Assembly: GCA_963722655.1 (NCBI GenBank)
Contig: CAVRNT010000001.1
Coordinates: forward strand, 244,994 to 308,993
Direction of reading: 5' to 3'
Length of the DNA stretch: 64,000 bases
From: an uncultured bacterium
GTDB lineage: Bacteria > Patescibacteriota > Minisyncoccia > UBA6257 > GWB1-50-10
This document shows, in pieces, positions 7,963 to 15,275 of the stretch (position 1 is the first letter of the stretch; every line of letters begins with the position of its first letter). A program made the position numbers and the translations under genes. The notes beneath the pieces were generated by a model. It had not been told where the DNA came from. It searched no databases and worked only from the letters and a program-made list of their open reading frames with translations.

Positions 7963-8034
7963 TCCCCGGTAGCTCAGTGGTAGAGCGGCGCTCTGTTAAA
8001 GCGATGGTCGTAGGTTCGAATCCTACCCGGGGAG
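7963..8034 (+). tRNA. tRNA-Asn (anticodon GTT)
   Basis: Cloverleaf TCCCCGG-TA-GCTC-AGTGGTA-GAGC-G-GCGCT-CTGTTAA-AGCGA-TGGTC-GTAGG-TTCGAAT-CCTAC-CCGGGGA-G; anticodon GTT is flanked by U33 and A37. Confidence 0.85.
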
Positions 8035-9618
8035 CATTACTGGATTTCGGGCATACAAATGCCCGATTTTCTTTTTATTCGCGTGCTTTTTAGCAGGTTC
8101 TAACCCTGCGGATATTTCTTGCGCTTCTTTTGCCGCAGTTTGTATCGGGAACAGCAGATTATCCAAAGAAACACTCAATTTTTTGTCTTTTAGGGTGAGG
8201 TCCGAACCTAACGCCATAAAAATCCCTTTTTTCACTTCCATATCCTTCGTGGTAGCGAATATCTGCCGGGCCTTCTCTGCGAAGTTAAGGCCGCGCTCAG
8301 CAATTTCAAGCCAGTTCTCAACGCGCTTATCCGTATCTTTAAGCAGTTCCTGAAGCCGCTCTTTCTCCGCGAGTATTGTTTCCTTCTTGCTTTTGAACTC
8401 GTCCTCGGTAATCTCGCCGTTGGCACGCATATCAATCAAATTGTCTCCTCTACGTACGCACGCCTCGTATTCACGCCTCTGGTTGCCGTAAATGCGCTCC
8501 CGGTCCTCAACCTCCTTCTCGTTCATCTGCCGCAATCGCGCCATCGCCCACTCCTTGAAATCGGTTGGGATTTCAAGCTTGGCAAGCTCGGCGGTAATCT
8601 GCTTTTCAAGCTCGTCCTTCTCTATGGCCTGTTGCGTGCAATTCGGGTCCCTGCGTTTGGTGCAGTGATAGTAGGTGTAGTGATGCACATTGCCGTTTTT
8701 CTGGTGCTTCATTTTTTCCTCGGCGGTAATCATCGCACCGCACTCGCCGCAATGTATCGGCCCGCGATATACGATGTCGCGCTTTTGCCCTCGCGGTTGC
8801 GAACGCCTGCCGAGCAGAAACTGTATCCGGTCATACTCCTCTCGCGTAATCATCGGCTTGTGTATGCCCTTATGCCATTCTCCGCTTCCCACCGGATATT
8901 CAAACTCCCCGTAATAGAATGGGCGGGTTAGAAGCAGATAGATATTACTTCTGCTAAAAGGTTTGCCGTTAGGCATACGAAGGCCCCAATCTTTCGTTGC
9001 TATCTCCAAAATGCGCGGCGGCGTGTATTTACCAGTAAGCATCAGGTCAAATATCTTCCGCACAATATCAAAACGCTCCGGGTCTTCGTGAATGGTTTTG
9101 TATCCTTTCTCCCCGTATTTATCGTTCAAGTAGCCAACGGGAGCCGGTGCAGGATAAATGCCCATACGCGCCTTCTGCCCTAGTCCGCGTTTCACATCGC
9201 GTCCTTTCTTTGCGCTCTCGTATTGCGATTGTGAGAGCGCCATTTGAAGCATCCAAATACCCTCGGGTGTGTTCTCAAAGTGATAGGTTGCGAGCTTGAG
9301 GTCTTCTATAACCCCAGTGCGTATCATATAGGTAATTTCGCCAGCGTCTTTCTCGTTGCGCGAGAGACGGTCTGGATGCCACGCAACCAATCCGGTCCGC
9401 TCGCCGCTTTTTATCCGTTCAAGCATATCCGCGAACGCGGGGCGATTGAACGGCTTGAACGCGCTCGCCTTATCTTCCACAAACTCAACGTCCAATTTTC
9501 CGAACACTTCATTGAGCTTGTCTTTCTGCGCGGGGATGGACAACGCTTGTCTCTCCTCGCCCTCGGTGGATTTTCTTACATACGCGAAGTATTTAATTTT
9601 ATTTGTGTCTTTACTCAT
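8023..9618 (-). CDS. large serine recombinase (serine integrase)
   Basis: MSKDTNKIKYFAYVRKSTEGEE gives the catalytic Ser in a resolvase-type N-domain, followed by a recombinase domain and a Cys-rich zinc ribbon (HCGECGA...YYHCTKRRDPNC) and a coiled-coil; about 531 aa; stop overlaps tRNA-Asn. Confidence 0.85.
   Translation of the reverse strand: MSKDTNKIKYFAYVRKSTEGEERQALSIPAQKDKLNEVFGKLDVEFVEDKASAFKPFNRPAFADMLERIKSGERTGLVAWHPDRLSRNEKDAGEITYMIRTGVIEDLKLATYHFENTPEGIWMLQMALSQSQYESAKKGRDVKRGLGQKARMGIYPAPAPVGYLNDKYGEKGYKTIHEDPERFDIVRKIFDLMLTGKYTPPRILEIATKDWGLRMPNGKPFSRSNIYLLLTRPFYYGEFEYPVGSGEWHKGIHKPMITREEYDRIQFLLGRRSQPRGQKRDIVYRGPIHCGECGAMITAEEKMKHQKNGNVHHYTYYHCTKRRDPNCTQQAIEKDELEKQITAELAKLEIPTDFKEWAMARLRQMNEKEVEDRERIYGNQRREYEACVRRGDNLIDMRANGEITEDEFKSKKETILAEKERLQELLKDTDKRVENWLEIAERGLNFAEKARQIFATTKDMEVKKGIFMALGSDLTLKDKKLSVSLDNLLFPIQTAAKEAQEISAGLEPAKKHANKKKIGHLYARNPVMLPG
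8045..8077 (+). terminator. tRNA-Asn terminator hairpin encoded inside the recombinase 3' coding region
   Basis: TCGGGCATacaaATGCCCGA followed by ttttcttttt. Confidence 0.55.
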
Positions 9619-9771
9619 ATGAAAAACCCGAAAGGGACGGTCTGGTTGACCCGATATGTGCAATCGCAAGGACTGACAGCATAGCGGCAGACCGCCCCTT
9701 CCGGGCCACTATGCTTTTTGGTAATAAAAATGCCTTGCGTGTCTTCGTACATAATCGGGTCAACATTATCA

Positions 9772-10959
9772 TTATACGCCGTTTTCCAATGAATCCAAGT
9801 TAATGGGCTCAAACCGCTTAAATGCCTCATCAATAAAGGCGATGGTATTGGAATATGGCAACCCGTGCGTAAGCTCGGCAGAGGCCTCAATTTTGCGCGT
9901 TAGGCGCTCGCTGTGGTCCGTATTCCATACGCTGAATATGGCTCTGCGCGTCTCCTTCGCTCCGTGGTCTTGTATGGTCCGCGCCAATCCGTAAGAAGTC
10001 AGCGCCCGGTTCATACTATGCGCCTCGCCGCCGAGCTTCTTCGCCTGTGAAAATATGTGCAAGAGCAATGCTAAGTCATCAGTGGGGCCAAGAAGCGCGA
10101 GCTGGTTTTCCGGCCGCCGGATAAGCCCGTGCCAAGAATTAAGTATTATTGTTTTGCAAAGGTTTGGGGTGAAAAGGTCTTTGAAAGCAATAAATGTTTT
10201 TGGATTTCTCCCCAGTGCGGCATTTATCTCGCGCATCACCGTCTGCCCCTTTTTAAGCCGGTATTCATACCGAAACACCTCTTGTTTCTGCAATCCAAAG
10301 CGTTCAATTATGGCTCGTTCGTAATCAATGCGCCCCTTATCTTTGCGTTTTATTTTCGGGCGCATAGCATCCGCAATTTTGTCGTAAAAAACCCGTTCAA
10401 CTGTGCCCGAGTAGATATGAAGCACCCGCCCGTTTTTGAACTCAACTTTTGTAATGTCCACTACCTTGCTTATATCCACGCGCTGGAGTTCCGCCAGTGC
10501 CTCCTGCATTCGTATGTCTCGTGGCAGTGGCACGTTCTTGCAGAAATGGACCGCCGAGACATAGGCACTAGCCACTATATTGCTCTCAATCGCTATACCA
10601 ACGCTATTTAGCGCTTCTTTGAAAGCGTAAAGCACCTTATCAAAATCAAGTTCGGACACCTCCTGCAAGCTGTTTCTATTAAGCAGTTTCGGTACCGAGA
10701 ACTCGGCCTTGAGGATATACCGCACGGCATCGCGGCTTTCGGTAAGCGCCTCAAGAACTTCTACTCTCGGCCGGTAGCCGTTCTGATAAGGCGGCTTCAA
10801 GATAAAACGCCGGAGGTAGGGATGGGTAGATTGCTGGGATTGTTTTTCGGTCTGCGAAAGCTGAAAATAATTACGTTTTGAGAACTCGGGTAGAAACCAC
10901 GATAGCTCCGTAATTTGAAACTTATCCGCTCCGTAGATTTTGATAATGACCGTATCCAT
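9772..10959 (-). CDS. hypothetical protein with Rep_trans-like motifs (rolling-circle replication initiator / MobT-type relaxase family, tentative)
   Basis: 395 aa; segments ...GRVLHIYSGTVERVFYDKI... and ...EVFRYEYRLKKGQ... resemble the Rep_trans motifs (YxGsr..lRiYdK and wRvEiElk); lies next to the integrase as in IMEs/ICEs. Confidence 0.45.
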   Translation of the reverse strand: MDTVIIKIYGADKFQITELSWFLPEFSKRNYFQLSQTEKQSQQSTHPYLRRFILKPPYQNGYRPRVEVLEALTESRDAVRYILKAEFSVPKLLNRNSLQEVSELDFDKVLYAFKEALNSVGIAIESNIVASAYVSAVHFCKNVPLPRDIRMQEALAELQRVDISKVVDITKVEFKNGRVLHIYSGTVERVFYDKIADAMRPKIKRKDKGRIDYERAIIERFGLQKQEVFRYEYRLKKGQTVMREINAALGRNPKTFIAFKDLFTPNLCKTIILNSWHGLIRRPENQLALLGPTDDLALLLHIFSQAKKLGGEAHSMNRALTSYGLARTIQDHGAKETRRAIFSVWNTDHSERLTRKIEASAELTHGLPYSNTIAFIDEAFKRFEPINLDSLENGV

Positions 10960-11065
10960 AGTCGTTTTTAATGTTGTCGGTGTTTTTCAAGGAATCCGCT
11001 CCGTAGATTTTGATAATGACCGTATCCATAGTCGTTTTTAATGTTGTCGGTGTTTTTCAAGGAAT
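10924..11065. repeat. perfect 70-bp tandem duplication (2 copies) covering the start and upstream of the Rep_trans-like gene and the 3' end of the 70-aa ORF
   Basis: 10926-10995 and 10996-11065 are identical (ccgctccgtagattttgataatgaccgtatccatagtcgtttttaatgttgtcggtgtttttcaaggaat). Confidence 0.95.
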
Positions 11066-11250
11066 CCTTTAGTGGTTGGCGCAGGATTTTGCGCGTTTTT
11101 TTGTTCGCTTGCGACTGCACGGCTTACCACTTCAACCAAACGGATAAGCCGCAAGCCCTTTTCAAGTGCCTGCTCCTTGGTTATCTCAACCCCAAAATGC
11201 TTTTTATAAAGCATCTGGAACTCGGAAATGTTTTTGTCGGTAAGGTCCAT
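11038..11250 (-). CDS. small hypothetical protein (70 aa)
   Basis: ORF MDLTDKNISEFQMLYKKHFGVEITKEQALEKGLRLIRLVE...; predicted helical and possibly DNA-binding; its C-terminus lies in the tandem repeat. Confidence 0.4.
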   Translation of the reverse strand: MDLTDKNISEFQMLYKKHFGVEITKEQALEKGLRLIRLVEVVSRAVASEQKNAQNPAPTTKGFLEKHRQH

Positions 11251-11367
11251 AGTTATTCGCTGTTCATTGCGTCCCTACCCTATATGCTGAAAAATCAGCG
11301 AAATAAAAAAACGTTGTAATAACGGGGGTTCTTGGATACGCTGGAAAGAAAAAAGCCTTCTGATTTT

Positions 11368-13275
11368 TCAGAGGGCTTCTTCCTCATCATCTTCCTCACC
11401 GCCTTCAATCGCCTCATTTTCATTAAACCTACCACCTTGAGGCCAGATTTCTTCTTTTCTTAAAACTGGTTCCGGTAATATGGCGAACTTTGGTTTATAG
11501 CGGTCGTGTATATCGTGGAATGGTTCATCGTTAGTTTTGAAAATCTCCTTTAACCACTTCACGAGTAATTTTTTCGCTTGCTGGACATTGTTCACAGATA
11601 AGGTTTTGTTTTTTGTAATCATTGGACGCATATTTTCTGCTGATGCATATTTGAAATCACTTGCCGATAGCGTGGATAAGGCACATAGAAAACCCCATTG
11701 CCGGTCTGGCTTCTGCTGGCGCTTACCGACAAAAAAACGAAGTTGAATGTAATCGGCAGTTATGATGTGGCTATTGTCATAAAAAATCTCAATCTCTTGC
11801 CGCCCTTCTTTTATCTTGAGTGTAACTTTCTCCCATTGGACCGGCTCTGGGAATGACAGCTCAATTGGCGACTCTCGCTTTTTACTCTTTGCATTAGGAG
11901 CTTCTCCTACAAATCTGACCGGCACTTCTGGCATAGCTGTGATTTCAATTTTCTGCACCGTTTGTTGAATCTGCTGGTTGTTTGGAGCAAAAGACATATT
12001 TTTGAGGCTCCTAACAATTGCTTCATCAAGTGCATCAATAATTTTTTTGCTTTTACCTTGCCATTTTTCTTCTGCCGAAATATCAATCAAATCCTTCTTC
12101 TCGCTACCGGCGACTCTCGTTGCGTTTGCAATACGCTCAATAAGCTTGGAGCTCTTCTTCATCTCTTTACTTATCTCTGTAGCGTCTGGTTTCAACGCAG
12201 ATATTTTGAGAAGAAATGCGCTTACGAGGTCTGAAGGACTTTCCGCTTTTTTTGCCTTCGCTTCAATATGAGCTGTTGCAAGTGAAGTAAATGGTCGCGC
12301 ATAGGTTTCTTTAAGGGGGTCAAGCTTGCCCCATTCTACCATCTCCTCAACTTTTCCAATGATTTCAAGATATAACCCCTCAAGCTCTTTATGGTCCAAA
12401 GCTTTATTATTTTCGTACGCGTTTACCAAAATAATCAATTGGCTCCAAAACACCCACAATCGCGCTATATCTTTAGGAGACCACACTTTATATGCCACCA
12501 GTTCAACATCTTTGCCATCCGAATCCGTCCACTCGTTAATCCCCAAATCCAACGCTTCTTCTGTGGGACCTATGTATAGTTTCCCATCTTTAATTTGTAT
12601 GCGGTCATATTTTAGCCATCCGTTATATTTCTCCTGCGTTTCTTTAGCTTTTGTCTCATCTCCCTCAAAAAATAATGGATGGACGGCTTCTTCAATGACT
12701 TTATATAAGGCCCGGCGGACCTTCTGGTTTGATGAGGTGTTTAACACTCGGAAAGCGCTGAAAAGCATCCTCCACTTGGTGTTTGGATACACAATAATCG
12801 TTGCTGGAGCACCACGCTCTTTAAGCAAATCAATAAGCTCTGGCCCAGTTTTGCGCTCGGCAATGTCTTTTGCAATAAGTTCAAGTGTTTGTGCGCGGAT
12901 TACCCCATCGTTATTCCTATCACTCAATAACTTCTTTATTTTCCCTCTGTCTGAAATGCGCAGATATGTCTTCAGAGGATGGACAGTTTCTATACCGCCG
13001 CTTTTGACAATTTCAACTTCAACCTTCATCCCCGGTCCCTTTTGCTCGGAGATTTTGATGCCACCCATATTTTCCAAGAAACGCCAGAATGAATTATTGT
13101 TTATCAGCGTCTCGGTGCTTTGGGGCTCGCCGGGGAAATGATTGATTATACTTACCTCGGTATCGGTTTCATCAGCCCAAGTTTTTTCGGCAATATCAAT
13201 AAGGCTTTCCAGATAGCGGAATATCTGGGGCGTAAAATCAAAGGGAAGTTTTTCTTTATCGTAGTAGAAGGCCAT
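11368..13275 (-). CDS. large hypothetical protein (about 635 aa), no recognisable domain, acidic C-terminal tail
   Basis: Long uninterrupted ORF in an AT-rich island (unlikely to be spurious at this GC); ATG at 13275 or TTG at 13320; ends ...EGGEEDDEEEAL; divergent from the Type III mod. Confidence 0.55.
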   Translation of the reverse strand: MAFYYDKEKLPFDFTPQIFRYLESLIDIAEKTWADETDTEVSIINHFPGEPQSTETLINNNSFWRFLENMGGIKISEQKGPGMKVEVEIVKSGGIETVHPLKTYLRISDRGKIKKLLSDRNNDGVIRAQTLELIAKDIAERKTGPELIDLLKERGAPATIIVYPNTKWRMLFSAFRVLNTSSNQKVRRALYKVIEEAVHPLFFEGDETKAKETQEKYNGWLKYDRIQIKDGKLYIGPTEEALDLGINEWTDSDGKDVELVAYKVWSPKDIARLWVFWSQLIILVNAYENNKALDHKELEGLYLEIIGKVEEMVEWGKLDPLKETYARPFTSLATAHIEAKAKKAESPSDLVSAFLLKISALKPDATEISKEMKKSSKLIERIANATRVAGSEKKDLIDISAEEKWQGKSKKIIDALDEAIVRSLKNMSFAPNNQQIQQTVQKIEITAMPEVPVRFVGEAPNAKSKKRESPIELSFPEPVQWEKVTLKIKEGRQEIEIFYDNSHIITADYIQLRFFVGKRQQKPDRQWGFLCALSTLSASDFKYASAENMRPMITKNKTLSVNNVQQAKKLLVKWLKEIFKTNDEPFHDIHDRYKPKFAILPEPVLRKEEIWPQGGRFNENEAIEGGEEDDEEEAL

Positions 13276-13399
13276 TGTAATTATTAACTTCAATCTACTG
13301 CTTTTTGCTGATTTTCTCAACGATTTTATGCTAAACTGAAATTACAACTAAATATGCGATAGAGGCCTAACCCCCGTGAGCAAAACTCCGAGGTATGGC

Positions 13400-13545
13400 A
13401 CACATAAGCCCCATCCCTGATACTAAACTCCGCGTTTAGCAACTCAGGGATGGGCTATGTCTCCGAAAGGAGGTGTAGGGCCGAAAGGTCTAGCTAGCGC
13501 GGAGTTTCGTGCTTCTCGCTAGCGACATAGCAACCCATCCCTCTA
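13400..13545 (+). promoter_or_regulatory. structured leader / operator region upstream of the Type III mod gene
   Basis: 11-bp stem CCCATCCCTGA/TCAGGGATGGG with a nested hairpin CTAAACtccgcGTTTAG; second hairpin GCTAGCG...CGCTAGC; AAACTCCGCG and CGCGGAGTTT are mutually complementary; CCCATCCCT occurs three times; strong AAGGAGGTG SD; 21-codon uORF 13457-13522. Confidence 0.4.
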
Positions 13546-15272
13546 TGTCCAAAAAATTAAAATCACAATCAACCATTCCGGCTGTAGCCGCTAAGCCGAA
13601 ATACGACAACTGGTCCAAAGAGCAACTTATTGACGAGGTGGCACGGCTTCGCAAGCGCAAGAAATACGGGCTTGTCTGGGAAGAAAAGCTAGAAAATGTC
13701 GTTGAGCAATGCAAGACAGAATTGCCGGTGCTCAAAGAAGTGAAAAATAAAGCGATTGCGAAAGATAAAAATGGCCCTGTGAACATTCTCATTGAGGGAG
13801 ACAATTACCACGCCTTATCGGTTTTGAATTACACCCACAAAGGCAAGATTGATGTCATCTACATTGACCCGCCATATAATACCGGCGCGCGTGATTGGAA
13901 ATACAACAACGATTATGTGGACGTTAACGACCAGTGGCGACATAGCAAATGGATTTTAATGATGGAGCATAGGTTACAACTGACAAAAAAACTTCTATCT
14001 CAAAACGGATTCATTATATGTGCAATTGACCATAACGAACTTTTCGCGCTTGGTCTTTTGATGGATGAGATTTTTGGTGAAAGTAATAGGTTGGGAACGA
14101 TTACAGTTGTGCACAAGCCAGAAGGAAGACAGTTCGCTAATTTCTTTAGTCCGTCAAATGAGTTTATGTTGGTGTATGCCAAAAATAGAACTTCGGCACA
14201 ATTTGAGAACATCGTTTTAAGTAAAGAGAAGGCGGATGAGTTTGACCTAGTAGATGAGAAGGGAAAGTACAAACTTCAGAACTTCATAAGATTGACTGAT
14301 GGTAAATATAGTTTGCGGAAAAATAAACCCGAGGGATATTACCCCATTTATGTAAGTAATGACTTAGCACATTTCAGTTTAACTAAAAAGAAGGGATACG
14401 ATGAAACACTGCCCATCACGAACAAGGGCGTGGAAAGAGTTTGGAAAACTTTTGGAGATACTTTTATGGATAAGGTAGGCAATGAGGCAATCGTGGCAAA
14501 AAGAGAAAACGGGAAAATAGTATTATACGAAAAATTAAGGCCGAGTGAAGTTCTGGTTACGCATTGGATTAAGAAACAGTATCACGGGTATCACTTTGGC
14601 ACGAAGTTATTAGAAACGATTTTAGGCAAAAAGTTGTTTGATTTCCCCAAATCTCTTTACTTGGTTCTAGATATTTTGAAACTTACCACAAGAAGAAACG
14701 CTATAATTTTAGATTTTTTCGCTGGCTCTGGCACTACTGGGCACGCTGTCCTTGAATTGAATAAGGAGGACGGTGGTAATCGCCGGTTTATTCTCTGCAC
14801 GAACAACGAAAATAACATCGCCACAGAAGTTTGTTATCCACGCGTAGCAAAAGTAATTGATGGATATAAAGATGCGGCGGGGAAAACAATTGCTGGTATC
14901 AAAAGCAATCTCAAATACTTCCGCACGGCATTTGTGGGCGCAGAGCCGAATGACAAAAACAAAGAAGCCCTAACTAAGAAGGCAACTGAAATGCTTTGTA
15001 TGCGCGAGGACACTTTTGAGTCGGTAAAAGAAACGGGTGCGGTAAAGATATTCAAAAACTCAAAACAGCATACCGGCATTATCTTTGATGAGGATGCTAT
15101 CCCTGCGTTAAAAAAAGAAATTGTGAAGATTGACGGCGCGTGGAGCATCTATATCTTCTCTCTTGGCGATGACACTTTTGAGGACGAGTTTGAGGATATG
15201 AAACAAAAGATAACCGTTGCGCCGATACCCGAGGCGATTTTGCGGGTCTACCGGCGCATATTCAAACCATAA
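13509..15272 (+). CDS. mod: Type III restriction-modification system methyltransferase (Mod), N6-adenine DNA methylase
   Basis: IYIDPPYNTG (DPPY motif IV), FAGSGTTG (motif I), ILIEGDNYHAL N-terminal motif typical of Type III Mod / Type IIG methylases; GTG start at 13509 (GGAG SD) or ATG at 13545. Confidence 0.8.
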   Translation: MLLASDIATHPSMSKKLKSQSTIPAVAAKPKYDNWSKEQLIDEVARLRKRKKYGLVWEEKLENVVEQCKTELPVLKEVKNKAIAKDKNGPVNILIEGDNYHALSVLNYTHKGKIDVIYIDPPYNTGARDWKYNNDYVDVNDQWRHSKWILMMEHRLQLTKKLLSQNGFIICAIDHNELFALGLLMDEIFGESNRLGTITVVHKPEGRQFANFFSPSNEFMLVYAKNRTSAQFENIVLSKEKADEFDLVDEKGKYKLQNFIRLTDGKYSLRKNKPEGYYPIYVSNDLAHFSLTKKKGYDETLPITNKGVERVWKTFGDTFMDKVGNEAIVAKRENGKIVLYEKLRPSEVLVTHWIKKQYHGYHFGTKLLETILGKKLFDFPKSLYLVLDILKLTTRRNAIILDFFAGSGTTGHAVLELNKEDGGNRRFILCTNNENNIATEVCYPRVAKVIDGYKDAAGKTIAGIKSNLKYFRTAFVGAEPNDKNKEALTKKATEMLCMREDTFESVKETGAVKIFKNSKQHTGIIFDEDAIPALKKEIVKIDGAWSIYIFSLGDDTFEDEFEDMKQKITVAPIPEAILRVYRRIFKP

Positions 15273-15275
15273 AAT

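What the first reader, a model, noticed from the sequence alone, without database searches (positions are those of the whole stretch)
13400..13545. Highly structured leader with repeated CCCATCCCT motifs and mutually complementary segments upstream of the Type III mod-res genes
Between the divergent 635-aa gene and mod lies a structured region:
- an 11-bp perfect stem (CCCATCCCTGA / TCAGGGATGGG) whose loop holds a nested 6-bp hairpin
- a second hairpin (GCTAGCG...CGCTAGC)
- a 10-nt segment of hairpin 1 (AAACTCCGCG) exactly complementary to hairpin 2 (CGCGGAGTTT), allowing alternative folds
- the CCCATCCCT motif three times, two direct and one inverted
- a very strong AAGGAGGTG SD
- a 21-codon uORF

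This looks like a regulatory switch (protein operator or RNA attenuator) controlling R-M expression, which is important when an R-M system enters a new host.
Basis: seen in the sequence. Interest (0 to 1): 0.55.

Follow-up and report, generated by a model that had tools for sequence, protein, structure and literature searches.

The report
LOOT RNA leader before mod gene
The structured stretch in front of the Type III methylase gene is a member of the known but function-less "LOOT" RNA family, and comparison with about 190 relatives shows it is a two-state 5' leader whose main hairpin carries a copy of, and an antisense to, the methylase start-codon region, which makes a role in switching translation directly testable.

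Summary
The region is not an unknown element: window 13364-13491 (+) matches Rfam RF03000 (LOOT RNA; 56.4 bits, cut-off 46.4). LOOT has no assigned function and Rfam types it as an sRNA.

I collected about 190 distinct LOOT elements, nearly all from Patescibacteria (CPR) genomes and groundwater metagenomes. They show three features outside the Rfam model:
- **Tetraloop receptor.** The conserved P1 bases look like an 11-nt GAAA tetraloop receptor, and P3 and P4 carry GAAA loops.
- **Long-range AP:AP' pairing.** The whole apex of the long hairpin P2 (AP) pairs with about 21 nt just after P4 (AP'). This shows strong covariation, is strand-specific, and cannot coexist with a closed P2.
- **Copy of the P2 arm at the start codon.** In about 40% of elements ("class A", including the window) the 5' arm of P2 is copied 0-8 nt before the downstream ATG. 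The arm sequence differs between elements. Class A genes are enriched for R-M methyltransferases (24/71 vs 1/81).

Best reading: a cis-acting, bistable 5' leader gating mod translation. The trigger and polarity are unknown. The "SD" and the uORF are not supported.

The parts
13329..13337 (+). Promoter-like extended -10 (TGCTAAACT). A TATAAT-like box sits 20-35 nt upstream of P1 in most of 103 LOOT loci.
   Evidence: Upstream alignment of 103 loci. The generic sigma-70 scan found no + strand site in the window, so this is an inference from family conservation.
13344..13354 (+). Conserved ACAAYUNAAU-type box (ACAACTAAATA) between the -10 and P1. Probably the 5' end of the transcript; role unknown.
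13364..13491 (+). LOOT RNA core as modelled by Rfam RF03000 (P1, P2 outer and inner, P3, P4).
   Evidence: cmscan 56.4 bits vs gathering 46.4, E = 1.3e-9, full model 1-121.
13365..13399 (+). P1 with internal loop CCUAAC / UAUGG, which resembles the 11-nt GAAA tetraloop receptor (CCUAAG/UAUGG).
   Evidence: Rfam consensus conserves CCUAA and AUGG. The variable receptor pair covaries: A.C 120, C.U 54, C.C 14 of 192. The identity of the receptor motif is from my own knowledge.
13410..13420 (+). 'a': 5' arm of the P2 outer stem (CCCAUCCCUGA), preceded by an A-rich linker.
13421..13443 (+). 'AP': apical segment of P2. It folds locally into the inner hairpin CUAAAC/GUUUAG, or pairs over 18 bp with AP'.
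13444..13454 (+). "a'": 3' arm of P2 (UCAGGGAUGGG). Complementary both to a and to a''.
   Evidence: I4, I6.
13455..13478 (+). P3, a 10-bp hairpin with a GAAA tetraloop (13465-68). It contains the SD-like AAGGAGGUG and the ATG of the non-conserved uORF.
   Evidence: alignment; covariation of P3 (8 of 8 pairs with double changes).
13479..13490 (+). P4, a short hairpin with a GAAA tetraloop (13483-86).
   Evidence: P4 loop GAAA in 192 of 192, but my search pattern required it.
13492..13512 (+). "AP'" (b''): segment complementary to the whole of AP. It overlaps the 5' arm and loop of P5. Outside the Rfam model.
   Evidence: (I1).
13493..13523 (+). P5 hairpin (GCUAGCG...CGCUAGC). It competes with AP:AP'.
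   Evidence: Family test: cognate -12.4 vs non-cognate -9.5 kcal/mol, p = 5e-9.
13524..13549 (+). P6 hairpin GACAUAG / CUAUGUC. Its 3' strand contains the mod AUG and its loop displays a''. Seen only in a subgroup of methylase leaders.
   Evidence: MFE fold. GGCAUAG/CUAUGCC in L147 is a compensatory variant. Not general in class A (p = 0.28).
13534..13542 (+). "a''": direct copy of the P2 5' arm (CCCAUCCCU), 2 nt before the mod start codon.
   Evidence: (D4).
13545..15272 (+). mod, a Type III DNA methyltransferase (575 aa). First gene served by the leader.
   Evidence: Pfam N6_N4_Mtase 1.6e-31; PADLOC MTase_III 6.8e-81.
15276..17513 (+). res, Type III restriction subunit (745 aa). Starts 4 nt after mod.
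   Evidence: Pfam ResIII 2e-20; PADLOC REase_III.

Best explanation
**What it is.** The region is the 5' leader of the mod-res mRNA, about 205 nt long, transcribed from its own promoter and built on a LOOT-family RNA.

**Fold X (the Rfam fold).**
- P2 is closed: arm a pairs with arm a', and the apex forms a small hairpin.
- P5 forms.
- The copy of the P2 arm (a'') just before the mod AUG is not held by a'.

**Fold Y.**
- The whole apex of P2 (AP) pairs with the about 21-nt segment after P4 (AP').
- This cannot coexist with a closed P2, so a' is released.
- The released a' can pair with a'' over the translation start region.

**Why this would control expression.** These genomes rarely use Shine-Dalgarno sequences, so access to the start region is the main determinant of initiation. 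The X/Y balance would therefore set Mod, and probably Res, synthesis.

**Shown here:**
- membership of LOOT;
- the helices and their covariation;
- mutual exclusivity by geometry;
- the cis position of a'';
- the association with methyltransferase genes.

**Inferred:**
- that the leader is co-transcribed with mod;
- that a':a'' forms in the RNA and blocks initiation;
- what drives X to Y. Candidates are slow spontaneous refolding after transcription (a timer), cleavage, temperature or Mg2+, or an unknown factor or ligand.
For: **Membership.**
- Rfam LOOT hit above gathering score.
- 20 of 20 pattern-derived relatives also pass.

**AP:AP' pairing.**
- 15 pairs, 14 of them with changes on both sides, 94.5% of cells paired, versus 37-49% in slide controls.
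- Whole-apex duplex -26.3 vs -15.5 kcal/mol non-cognate, p = 5e-85.
- Better on the transcribed strand in 167 of 171 elements, with 18% G.U pairs.
- The linkers average 0.6 and 1.5 nt, so a duplex of about 18 bp cannot form on a closed P2 loop.

**a'' copy.**
- Exact copies of the P2 5' arm (9 nt or longer) occur 36 times at +41 to +63 nt after P4 (one at +171). They are on the same strand, preceded by AAAA and followed by ATG within 0-8 nt.
- Only about 8 chance-level hits occur elsewhere in 1.32 Mb.
- Orthologous mod leaders (49-66% protein identity) carry different a/a'/a'' triplets.
- In L227, a'' differs from a by two C-to-U changes that keep G.U pairing.

**Energies.**
- Window: X -78.3, Y -60.6, a':a'' -16.6 kcal/mol.
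- Class A mean: X is 8.1 kcal/mol better than nested Y, and a':a'' adds -16.9.

**Gene context.**
- Methyltransferase genes follow 24 of 71 class A leaders versus 1 of 81 class B leaders, p = 1.6e-8.
- A same-strand ORF lies within 300 nt in most class B loci.
- SD-like motifs occur in only about 10% of genes.
Against: - There are no transcript data, so the 5' end, co-transcription with mod and any processing are unknown.
- In nearest-neighbour energies without pseudoknots, fold X dominates in the window. The predicted probability of a':a'' is about 1e-6.
- Y plus a':a'' is a pseudoknot whose energetic penalty I could not compute.
- About 60% of LOOTs (class B) have no a''. The family's core function therefore cannot depend on a''.
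- a and a'' are almost always identical rather than merely both complementary to a'. Only one element shows G.U-compensated differences. That pattern is also what a DNA-level copying process would give.
- The genes downstream of class A leaders are heterogeneous.
- No signal or ligand is identified, and the ON/OFF polarity is not determined. In the window the AUG is also sequestered in P6 in fold X.
Confidence: 0.55

Rival explanations
1. Transcription attenuator. AP:AP' is a long-range terminator helix (A-rich strand plus GC-rich core, then a U-rich tract). A closed P2 and P5 act as antiterminators. The switch would then decide between a short LOOT RNA and read-through into mod. This could act together with the translational mechanism.
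For: - In most family members AP' ends in a conserved CUUUUUGU-type U-run (near-invariant T columns).
- AP begins with an A-rich stretch.
- AP' overlaps the P5 5' arm, as in riboswitch expression platforms.
Against: - In the window the U-run is poor (GAGUUUCGUGCUUCU), and the terminator scan finds nothing on the + strand.
- The 'loop' of such a terminator would be about 70 nt.
- This model does not explain a''.
- Phage-borne LOOTs have a separate canonical terminator further downstream.
Confidence: 0.15
2. Stand-alone trans-acting small RNA (Rfam's type). The neighbourhood of mod would then be incidental or reflect a cis-encoded target.
For: - Rfam types LOOT as 'Gene; sRNA'.
- Class B elements have no a'' in cis.
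- Phage-like contigs carry a LOOT followed by its own terminator and a new promoter.
Against: - In the window there is no terminator between LOOT and mod.
- a'' lies in cis at a fixed distance in 36 or more elements.
- Most LOOTs are followed within 300 nt by a same-strand ORF.
- a' is buried in an 11-bp stem.
Confidence: 0.1
3. Static structured leader or portable promoter-leader cassette that stabilises the mRNA or aids folding, with no switching. On this view a'' is a by-product of how cassettes are joined to genes, for example recombination within LOOT.
For: - Near-identical modules running from about -50 to about +35 to +65 are shared between otherwise unrelated flanks.
- L310 and L311 share the upstream region, LOOT and a'', and then diverge 2 nt after a''.
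- a and a'' are nearly always identical.
Against: - Two mutually exclusive helices are both maintained by covariation.
- a'' is always placed immediately before the ATG and is preceded by the same A-rich flank as a.
- The association with one gene class suggests selection.
Confidence: 0.12
4. DNA-level element: repeats bound by a regulatory (C-like) protein, or inverted/direct repeats used for inversion or deletion (phase variation) of the mod promoter region.
For: - Two direct copies and one inverted copy of a 9-nt motif lie around the start of an R-M operon.
- A serine recombinase is encoded on the island.
Against: - The motif sequence differs in almost every homologue while pairing is kept.
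- The long-range helix is strand-specific with 18% G.U.
- GNRA loops plus a receptor motif and a covariance-model match indicate RNA.
- No HTH or C gene lies next to mod.
- There are no simple-sequence repeats in mod or res.
Confidence: 0.04
5. Leader-peptide (uORF) attenuation using the 21-codon ORF at 13457-13522 and the AAGGAGGTG motif.
For: The ORF and the SD-like string exist in the window.
Against: - The SD-like string lies inside the uORF, not upstream of it.
- The ATG is replaced by CATA in most relatives.
- The region is made of covarying helices with indels that are not multiples of three.
- SD usage is about 10% in these genomes.
Confidence: 0.02

Closest known systems
LOOT RNA motif (Rfam RF03000; Weinberg et al. 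2017, PMC5737381; shown as a 'metagenomic-based RNA' in the Rfam 14 paper, PMC7779021)
   Same: The window sequence matches the full 121-position model above the curated threshold. It has the same six helices, the conserved CCUAA/AUGG bases and two GAAA loops.
   Different: - Rfam types the family as an sRNA and gives no function.
- My recollection, not verified here, is that it was reported only from ocean metagenomes with no classified host.
- Here it lies in a Patescibacteria-type island as a 5' leader.
- It has conserved elements 3' of the model (AP', P5, and in class A a'') that the Rfam model does not cover.
Riboswitch and attenuator expression platforms (sequestrator / anti-sequestrator pairings; pseudoknot 3' strand overlapped by an alternative hairpin, as in ZTP or fluoride riboswitches; from my own knowledge)
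   Same: - A conserved structured core is followed by mutually exclusive helices.
- One strand (a') can pair either with an upstream mimic (a) or with the translation start region (a'').
- Two kinds of downstream arrangement occur on one core (class A and class B).
   Different: - No ligand, and no conserved unpaired pocket recognised.
- The downstream genes share no metabolic theme.
- The conserved bases are explained by a tetraloop-receptor contact.
Kinetically controlled or refolding leaders: phage MS2 maturation-gene 5' UTR and hok mRNA (tac/fbi/ucb alternative long-range pairings; from my own knowledge)
   Same: A long-range alternative pairing decides whether the start region is open. 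A locally formed hairpin made first during transcription competes with a more distant partner of similar stability.
   Different: There is no sequence or structural homology. No antisense partner or processing step is known here.
Known R-M expression control: C (controller) proteins with C-boxes, antisense RNAs in some Type II systems, and simple-repeat phase variation of Type III mod genes (from my own knowledge)
   Same: It sits in front of the first gene of an R-M operon on a mobile island, where timing of methylase versus nuclease matters.
   Different: - No C gene or HTH gene next to mod.
- No conserved operator sequence.
- No repeat tract in mod.
- The element is a structured sense-strand leader that is also used for non-R-M genes.
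11-nt GAAA tetraloop receptor (CCUAAG/UAUGG) of group I/II introns and RNase P (from my own knowledge)
   Same: The window has CCUAAC/UAUGG in an asymmetric internal loop of P1. Two GAAA tetraloops are available to dock.
   Different: The G.U position of the canonical motif is A.C, C.U or C.C here, and the two positions covary. Docking is not shown.

Membership tests
LOOT RNA (Rfam RF03000) | Covariance-model score at or above the curated gathering score over the full model | tested here: met
   56.4 bits vs 46.4, model positions 1-121 of 121, E = 1.3e-9 locally and 6.1e-8 for the whole window.
LOOT RNA (Rfam RF03000) | Helices P1 (two parts), long P2 (outer plus inner), P3 and P4 with GNRA loops, and conserved CCUAA / AUGG bases | tested here: met
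   alignment: all helices present, with a few non-canonical pairs in P1. Helices recovered independently by repeat finding and folding.
LOOT RNA (Rfam RF03000) | Acts as an independent small RNA (Rfam type 'Gene; sRNA') | not testable with these tools
   Context argues for a cis leader in the window: no terminator before mod and a'' at the ATG. No transcript data are available.
Riboswitch | Mutually exclusive structures linking a conserved core to the expression signals of the downstream gene | tested here: met
   AP:AP' versus closed P2 and P5; a' can pair with a or with a''.
Riboswitch | Downstream genes share a pathway that points to a ligand | tested here: not met
   Methyltransferases, nucleases, peptidases, Kelch, FemAB and many secreted or membrane proteins.
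Riboswitch | Specific ligand binding by the RNA | not testable with these tools
   Needs in-line probing or ITC with candidate ligands.
11-nt GAAA tetraloop receptor | CCUAAG / UAUGG internal loop plus a GAAA tetraloop elsewhere in the RNA | tested here: inconclusive
   The window has CCUAAC/UAUGG (10 of 11 bases) and GAAA loops in P3 and P4. The deviating pair covaries across 192 elements. Docking cannot be tested here.
C-protein controlled R-M operon | Small HTH controller gene next to the R-M genes and a conserved palindromic C-box | tested here: not met
   No HTH gene between 13276 and 18461 in Pfam, NCBIfam or PADLOC. The repeat sequence is hypervariable among homologues.
Phase-variable Type III mod (phasevarion) | Simple-sequence repeat tract in or just upstream of mod | tested here: not met
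   Tandem Repeats Finder on 13200-17600 gives only two weak 2-copy rows inside the genes.
Intrinsic-terminator attenuator | GC-rich stem directly followed by a U tract, alternating with an antiterminator | tested here: inconclusive
   Most family members have a CUUUUUGU run at the end of AP'. The window's own run is weak, and no + strand terminator is called.
Leader-peptide attenuation | Conserved short ORF with its own start signals in the leader | tested here: not met
   The uORF ATG is not conserved. The region is made of covarying helices.

The most novel reading that the evidence does not exclude
LOOT may be a widespread Patescibacteria riboregulator class: a self-refolding (timer-like) or factor-responsive bistable 5' leader. 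Its P2 hairpin carries both a mimic of, and an antisense to, the start region of the gene it controls. It would be used preferentially to gate translation of restriction-modification methyltransferases on mobile islands. A more remote variant is that the a/a'/a'' triplet also marks the junction at which R-M cargo genes are exchanged behind a fixed promoter-leader (L310 vs L311).
Probability: 0.3. Interest if true: 0.8.

Novelty: new member of a known kind. Interest (0 to 1): 0.6.

Why it matters
- **LOOT has no assigned function.** In the literature held here it appears only as a structure example.
- **This instance gives it a host and a context.** The host group is Patescibacteria/CPR. The genomic context is the 5' leader of accessory genes on mobile islands.
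- **It gives a concrete, mutation-testable mechanism.** The Rfam model appears to omit a conserved 3' domain, and the RNA has two exclusive folds. In about 40% of cases one fold would free an antisense to the start codon region.
- **If confirmed, it would be a new way of controlling R-M methyltransferase synthesis,** in a phylum where almost nothing is known about RNA regulation.
- **Practical point.** Annotation pipelines that stop at the Rfam match miss the part of the element that touches the gene.

Tried and rejected
- **BLAST of the region against plasmid and phage collections:** no match.
- **Pfam, PADLOC and NCBIfam on the divergent 635-aa gene and the 395-aa gene:** no family. Homologues of the 635-aa protein served only to fetch related islands. 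LOOT is present in one of these (L003). It is absent at the gathering score from L004, L008, L010 and L011, and absent even at E up to 1 in L004.
- **First loose DNA pattern on viral contigs:** mostly chance hits. It was replaced by a stricter pattern.
- **P6 (start-codon hairpin) as a general class A feature:** rejected. Cognate 4.4 vs non-cognate 4.1 bp, p = 0.28. It holds only for a methylase subgroup.
- **Window-specific helix 13454-61:13524-31:** not conserved in the closest relative L147.
- **Lack of SD as a special property of class A genes:** rejected. 10% in class A and 10% in the background.
- **Trans targets of a' in class B contigs:** only chance-level 9-mers.
- **The P2 arm as the recognition site of the downstream methylase:** rejected. 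The same arm (for example CCACTGCGAC, ACTGTTCAGG, CCCAACCAC) precedes different methylase families and non-methylase genes.
- **Target-site duplication of a small mobile element:** rejected. The conserved promoter and P1 lie outside the repeat-flanked part, and the model does not explain a'.
- **Column-wise covariation of P2 outer, P4 and P5 on the MAFFT alignment:** unusable because the hypervariable arms are misaligned. I used per-sequence cognate/non-cognate tests instead, and did not build my own covariance model.
- **Direct repeat of the tRNA-Asn 3' end to mark the far island boundary:** none of 12 nt or longer.
- **Supplement of the paper that described LOOT:** not held.
Full report
**1. 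The observation**

- An 11-bp perfect stem lies at 13410-13420 / 13444-13454, with a nested hairpin in its loop.
- The GCTAGCG/CGCTAGC hairpin lies at 13493-99 / 13517-23.
- The two hairpins are complementary to each other: 13 nt at 92%, 13422-34 vs 13498-510.
- CCCATCCCT occurs at 13410-18 and 13534-42, with its complement at 13446-54.

The + strand folds far better than shuffles (z = -5.7, 0 of 200 shuffles as good). The - strand reaches z = -4.2. The mod start codon is at 13545, in frame with the ORF that ends at 15272.

**2. Identity**

An Rfam scan finds RF03000 (LOOT RNA) at 13364-13491 on the + strand. The score is 56.4 bits against a gathering score of 46.4, over the full model.

In the literature held here LOOT appears in three ways:
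- as a metagenome-derived family imported from the Weinberg/Breaker alignments (PMC7779021);
- as an example with many cross-covariations, about 43 bp in six helices (PMC7657543);
- in a list of R-scape-improved families (PMC11701678).

No functional study was found. The supplement of the paper that described it is not held.

The second hairpin and the third CCCATCCCT copy are therefore outside the model.

**3. Genomic setting**

- mod (N6_N4_Mtase; PADLOC MTase_III) and res (ResIII) follow the leader.
- The divergent 635-aa gene has no family match.
- A tRNA-Asn at 7963-8035 abuts a large serine recombinase gene.
- The stretch from about 8 to 20 kb is 41-50% GC in a roughly 60% GC genome.
- Homologues of the 635-aa protein occur only on Patescibacteria-type contigs. 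There they form a conserved backbone: 635-aa-like gene, DUF5659, small ORFs, a 393-aa gene and a serine recombinase.
- Divergent from that backbone lies variable R-M cargo, either Type III or Type I.
- One of these islands, L003, has a LOOT directly upstream of its mod. Other Type III islands have short intergenic regions or no LOOT.

**4. Collecting relatives**

A DNA pattern built from the conserved P1 bases and the P4 loop gave these results:
- 6 stretches in viral contigs;

After requiring a P2 stem of at least 9 bp, 192 distinct elements remained. Twenty of twenty tested pass the Rfam LOOT threshold, at 52-97 bits.

The genome hits are almost all Patescibacteria/CPR MAGs, with several hits in some genomes. 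The named groups include Paceibacterota, Parcubacteria, Saccharibacteria, Doudna-, Uhr-, Kaiser-, Adler-, Lloyd- and Yanofskybacteria, Peregrinibacteria and Dojkabacteria.

A caveat applies. The pattern fixes some P1 and P4 bases, so conservation of those particular bases in my set is partly by construction. The Rfam consensus shows them independently.

**5. Anatomy across the family**

(a) *Promoter and 5' box.* A TATAAT-like box lies 20-35 nt upstream of P1 and is followed by a conserved ACAAYUNAAU box. This is common to most loci. In the window these are TGCTAAACT at 13329-37 and ACAACTAAATA at 13344-54.

(b) *Tetraloop receptor.* P1 carries CCUAA[A/C] opposite [C/U]AUGG. To my knowledge this is the 11-nt GAAA tetraloop receptor with one altered pair. 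That pair covaries: A.C 120, C.U 54, C.C 14. P3 and P4 have GAAA loops. The invariant bases are thus plausibly explained by a tertiary contact rather than by a ligand or protein site.

(c) *P2 outer stem.* The a/a' stem averages 11 bp and its sequence is hypervariable.

(d) *AP:AP' pairing.* The segment after P4 is conserved (consensus GCGGNGGGCUUUUUGU). It pairs with the apex of P2.
- RNAalifold on 70 sequences chose this helix on its own.
- Explicit counting gives 15 pairs, 14 with changes on both sides, and 94.5% of cells paired. Slid controls give 37-49%, and 0 of 500 shuffles reach the observed values.
- Per-sequence duplex folding shows that the entire apex (21-23 nt) is complementary to about 21 nt starting 2-6 nt after P4. 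The mean is 17.9 pairs and -26.3 kcal/mol, against -15.5 for non-cognate partners (p = 5e-85).
- The pairing is better on the transcribed strand in 167 of 171 elements, because 18% of pairs are G.U.

That asymmetry argues for selection on RNA, not on duplex DNA.

(e) *Exclusivity.* The unpaired linkers between a and the paired apex average 0.6 nt. Those between the apex and a' average 1.5 nt. A loop closed by an 11-bp stem cannot wrap into an 18-bp helix with such linkers. Closed P2 and full AP:AP' are therefore mutually exclusive. This step is an inference from pseudoknot geometry.

(f) *Competing local helices.* AP' also forms the 5' arm and loop of a local hairpin, P5 (cognate -12.4 vs -9.5 kcal/mol, p = 5e-9). 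The inner P2 hairpin is also weakly but significantly supported (-5.7 vs -3.7).

The family therefore keeps two alternative sets of helices:
- fold X: P2 plus P5;
- fold Y: AP:AP'.

**6. The third copy of the P2 arm**

Exact copies of at least 9 nt of arm a were searched over all 1.32 Mb of loci, on both strands.
- 36 lie on the same strand +41 to +63 nt after P4 (one at +171).
- Each is preceded by an A-rich flank like the one before a, and followed by an ATG within 0-8 nt that opens a long ORF.
- Only about 8 other hits were found, as expected by chance.

In the metagenome set 35 of 105 elements are of this "class A". In the genome set 44 of 88 are. The window belongs to this class.

The arm sequence differs between elements. 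This includes leaders of orthologous mod genes at 49-66% protein identity:
- window: CCCAUCCCU;
- L254: CUGUUCAGGU;
- L003: CCACUGCGAC;
- L144: ACCUACGCGAA.

This is three-way covariation. The core of a'' is nearly always identical to a. Only L227 differs internally, by two C-to-U changes that keep G.U pairing with a'.

**7. Genes served**

| Set | Proteins scanned | N6_N4_Mtase | Other notable families |
|---|---|---|---|
| Class A, metagenome set plus the window, L003 and L072 | 33 | 12 | 2 Mrr-type nucleases |
| Class A, genomes | 38 | 9 | 3 N6_Mtase/HSDR_N_2; Mrr, EcoRV, HNH and SNase nucleases |
| Class B | 81 | 1 | mostly secreted or membrane proteins |

- The difference in methyltransferases between the classes is 24 of 71 vs 1 of 81, Fisher p = 1.6e-8.
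- Class A is not exclusive to R-M. Peptidases, Kelch, FemAB and small membrane proteins also occur.
- Most class B elements are still followed by a same-strand ORF within 300 nt. Of the 97 class B loci with enough downstream sequence, 16 have none. LOOT therefore behaves as a leader in general.
- An exception is a phage-like group with its own terminator and a fresh promoter downstream.
- SD-like motifs precede only about 10% of genes in these genomes, in class A and in the background alike. Start-site accessibility is therefore the likely main determinant of initiation.

**8. Energetics**

For the window leader 13338-13575, the minimum free energy structure (-81.8 kcal/mol) contains:
- P1, P2, part of P3, P4 and P5;
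- a hairpin P6 (13524-30 / 13543-49) whose 3' strand holds the AUG and whose loop displays a''.

Forcing a':a'' gives -71.1 kcal/mol.

With a shorter construct:

| Construct | Fold X | Fold Y (nested only) | a':a'' duplex |
|---|---|---|---|
| Window | -78.3 | -60.6 | -16.6 |
| Class A mean | 8.1 better than Y | (reference) | -16.9 |
| Class B mean | 6.0 better than Y | (reference) | none |

In class A the two states thus come out roughly isoenergetic before an unknown pseudoknot penalty.

P6 is not general (p = 0.28). It recurs in a methylase subgroup as GGCAU...AUGCC. The window (GACAUAG/CUAUGUC) is a compensated variant of L147 (GGCAUAG/CUAUGCC).

**9. Interpretation**

The best-supported reading is a cis-acting, bistable LOOT leader.
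- In fold X, a' is held by a.
- In fold Y, the apex is captured by AP', P2 opens, and a' can cover a'' at the start codon.

I think it most likely that a':a'' blocks initiation. On that view the LOOT fold is the permissive state, and refolding or loss of the 5' part shuts translation off. The opposite polarity is possible in the window, because P6 hides the AUG in fold X.

The trigger is unknown. Since P2 is made first, a kinetic window followed by slow refolding is a simple possibility. A factor, temperature, Mg2+ or cleavage are alternatives.

The main rivals are:
- an attenuator in which AP:AP' plus the U-run terminates transcription;
- a stand-alone sRNA;
- a static leader or cassette;
- a DNA-level site;
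- a uORF.

Their evidence is set out under the rival explanations.

**10.

- The AAGGAGGTG string is the paired 3' arm of P3, 70 nt from the ATG, in genomes that rarely use SD.
- The uORF start is not conserved, and the uORF runs through covarying helices.
- No operator-binding protein gene is present.
- No repeat tract for phase variation is present.

**11. Verdict**

The finding is real and is a member of a known RNA family. As an instance it is not categorically new.

Its value lies in what the instance and its relatives reveal about the family:
- a host phylum;
- a cis context;
- a conserved 3' domain with an exclusive alternative fold;
- in class A, a built-in mimic and antisense of the start region, preferentially in front of R-M methyltransferase genes.

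None of this is in the literature I could search. All functional steps remain inferred.

Noticed in passing
window 7963-9669 and about 8000-20000: tRNA-Asn is abutted by a large serine recombinase gene. A 41-50% GC island sits in a roughly 60% GC genome. The backbone (recombinase, 395-aa, 70-aa and 635-aa genes) recurs on Patescibacteria contigs with different R-M cargo (Type III or Type I). No direct repeat of the tRNA end marks the far boundary.
   Followed up: partly
window 17562-18461: A SocA/Panacea-domain antitoxin gene is followed by a 135-aa MAG6450/NsnC-like gene immediately after res. This looks like a toxin-antitoxin or defence pair on the same island. L010 has the same pair near its Type III system.
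   Followed up: no
window 11368-13275 (-): The 635-aa protein has no Pfam, NCBIfam or PADLOC match. About 40 homologue clusters exist, all on CPR-type contigs, and the gene is always the first backbone gene next to the variable cargo.
   Followed up: partly
L003 8699-8941 (-): A group I intron (Rfam, 65.6 bits) lies right after the island's recombinase gene. It is probably an intron-bearing tRNA gene used as the integration site. This fits a 2026 report of group I introns in tRNA-Asn/Asp genes of Patescibacteria (PMC13011429).
   Followed up: no
L072 5791-7071 (-) and 4403-5461 (-): On a viral-collection contig a reverse-transcriptase gene (RVT_1) lies immediately upstream of a class A LOOT. 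That LOOT leads a nuclease-like gene (weak NucS_C hit in L072). The same nuclease family (N-terminus MAIIISxNGKNAV) follows LOOT in L183, L285, L311 and L369.
   Followed up: partly
L135, L141, L172, L207, L219, L242 (for example L135 3686-3900): Phage-like contigs (portal and SU10-type capsid genes) carry a near-identical stand-alone LOOT (arm CCATCCAAGG). It is followed by its own terminator and a new promoter. The same arm occurs as class A leaders of Mod and Mrr-like genes in the MAG loci L310 and L311.
   Followed up: partly
L310 vs L311: Two MAG loci share 225 nt of upstream sequence, the LOOT and a'' (88% identity), then diverge 2 nt after a'' into different R-M genes. This suggests cargo exchange behind a fixed leader.
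   Followed up: partly
window 13344-13354 and the equivalent position in about 100 loci: A conserved ACAAYUNAAU box lies between the -10 element and P1. It has no pairing partner found and no explanation.
   Followed up: no
L197 1-118 and 7287-7422: The same LOOT sequence occurs at both ends of a 7.4-kb contig. This implies a small circular element (plasmid or phage) carrying a LOOT.
   Followed up: no
LOOT-bearing loci in general (725 long ORFs): Only about 10% of genes have an SD-like motif 3-12 nt upstream of the ATG. These Patescibacteria lineages appear to initiate mostly without SD. The start-codon calls were crude.
   Followed up: partly
L007 5083-5193 (-): A SAM riboswitch (45.7 bits, just above threshold) lies on a CPR-type contig upstream of a small gene near a cyclodipeptide synthase gene.
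   Followed up: no
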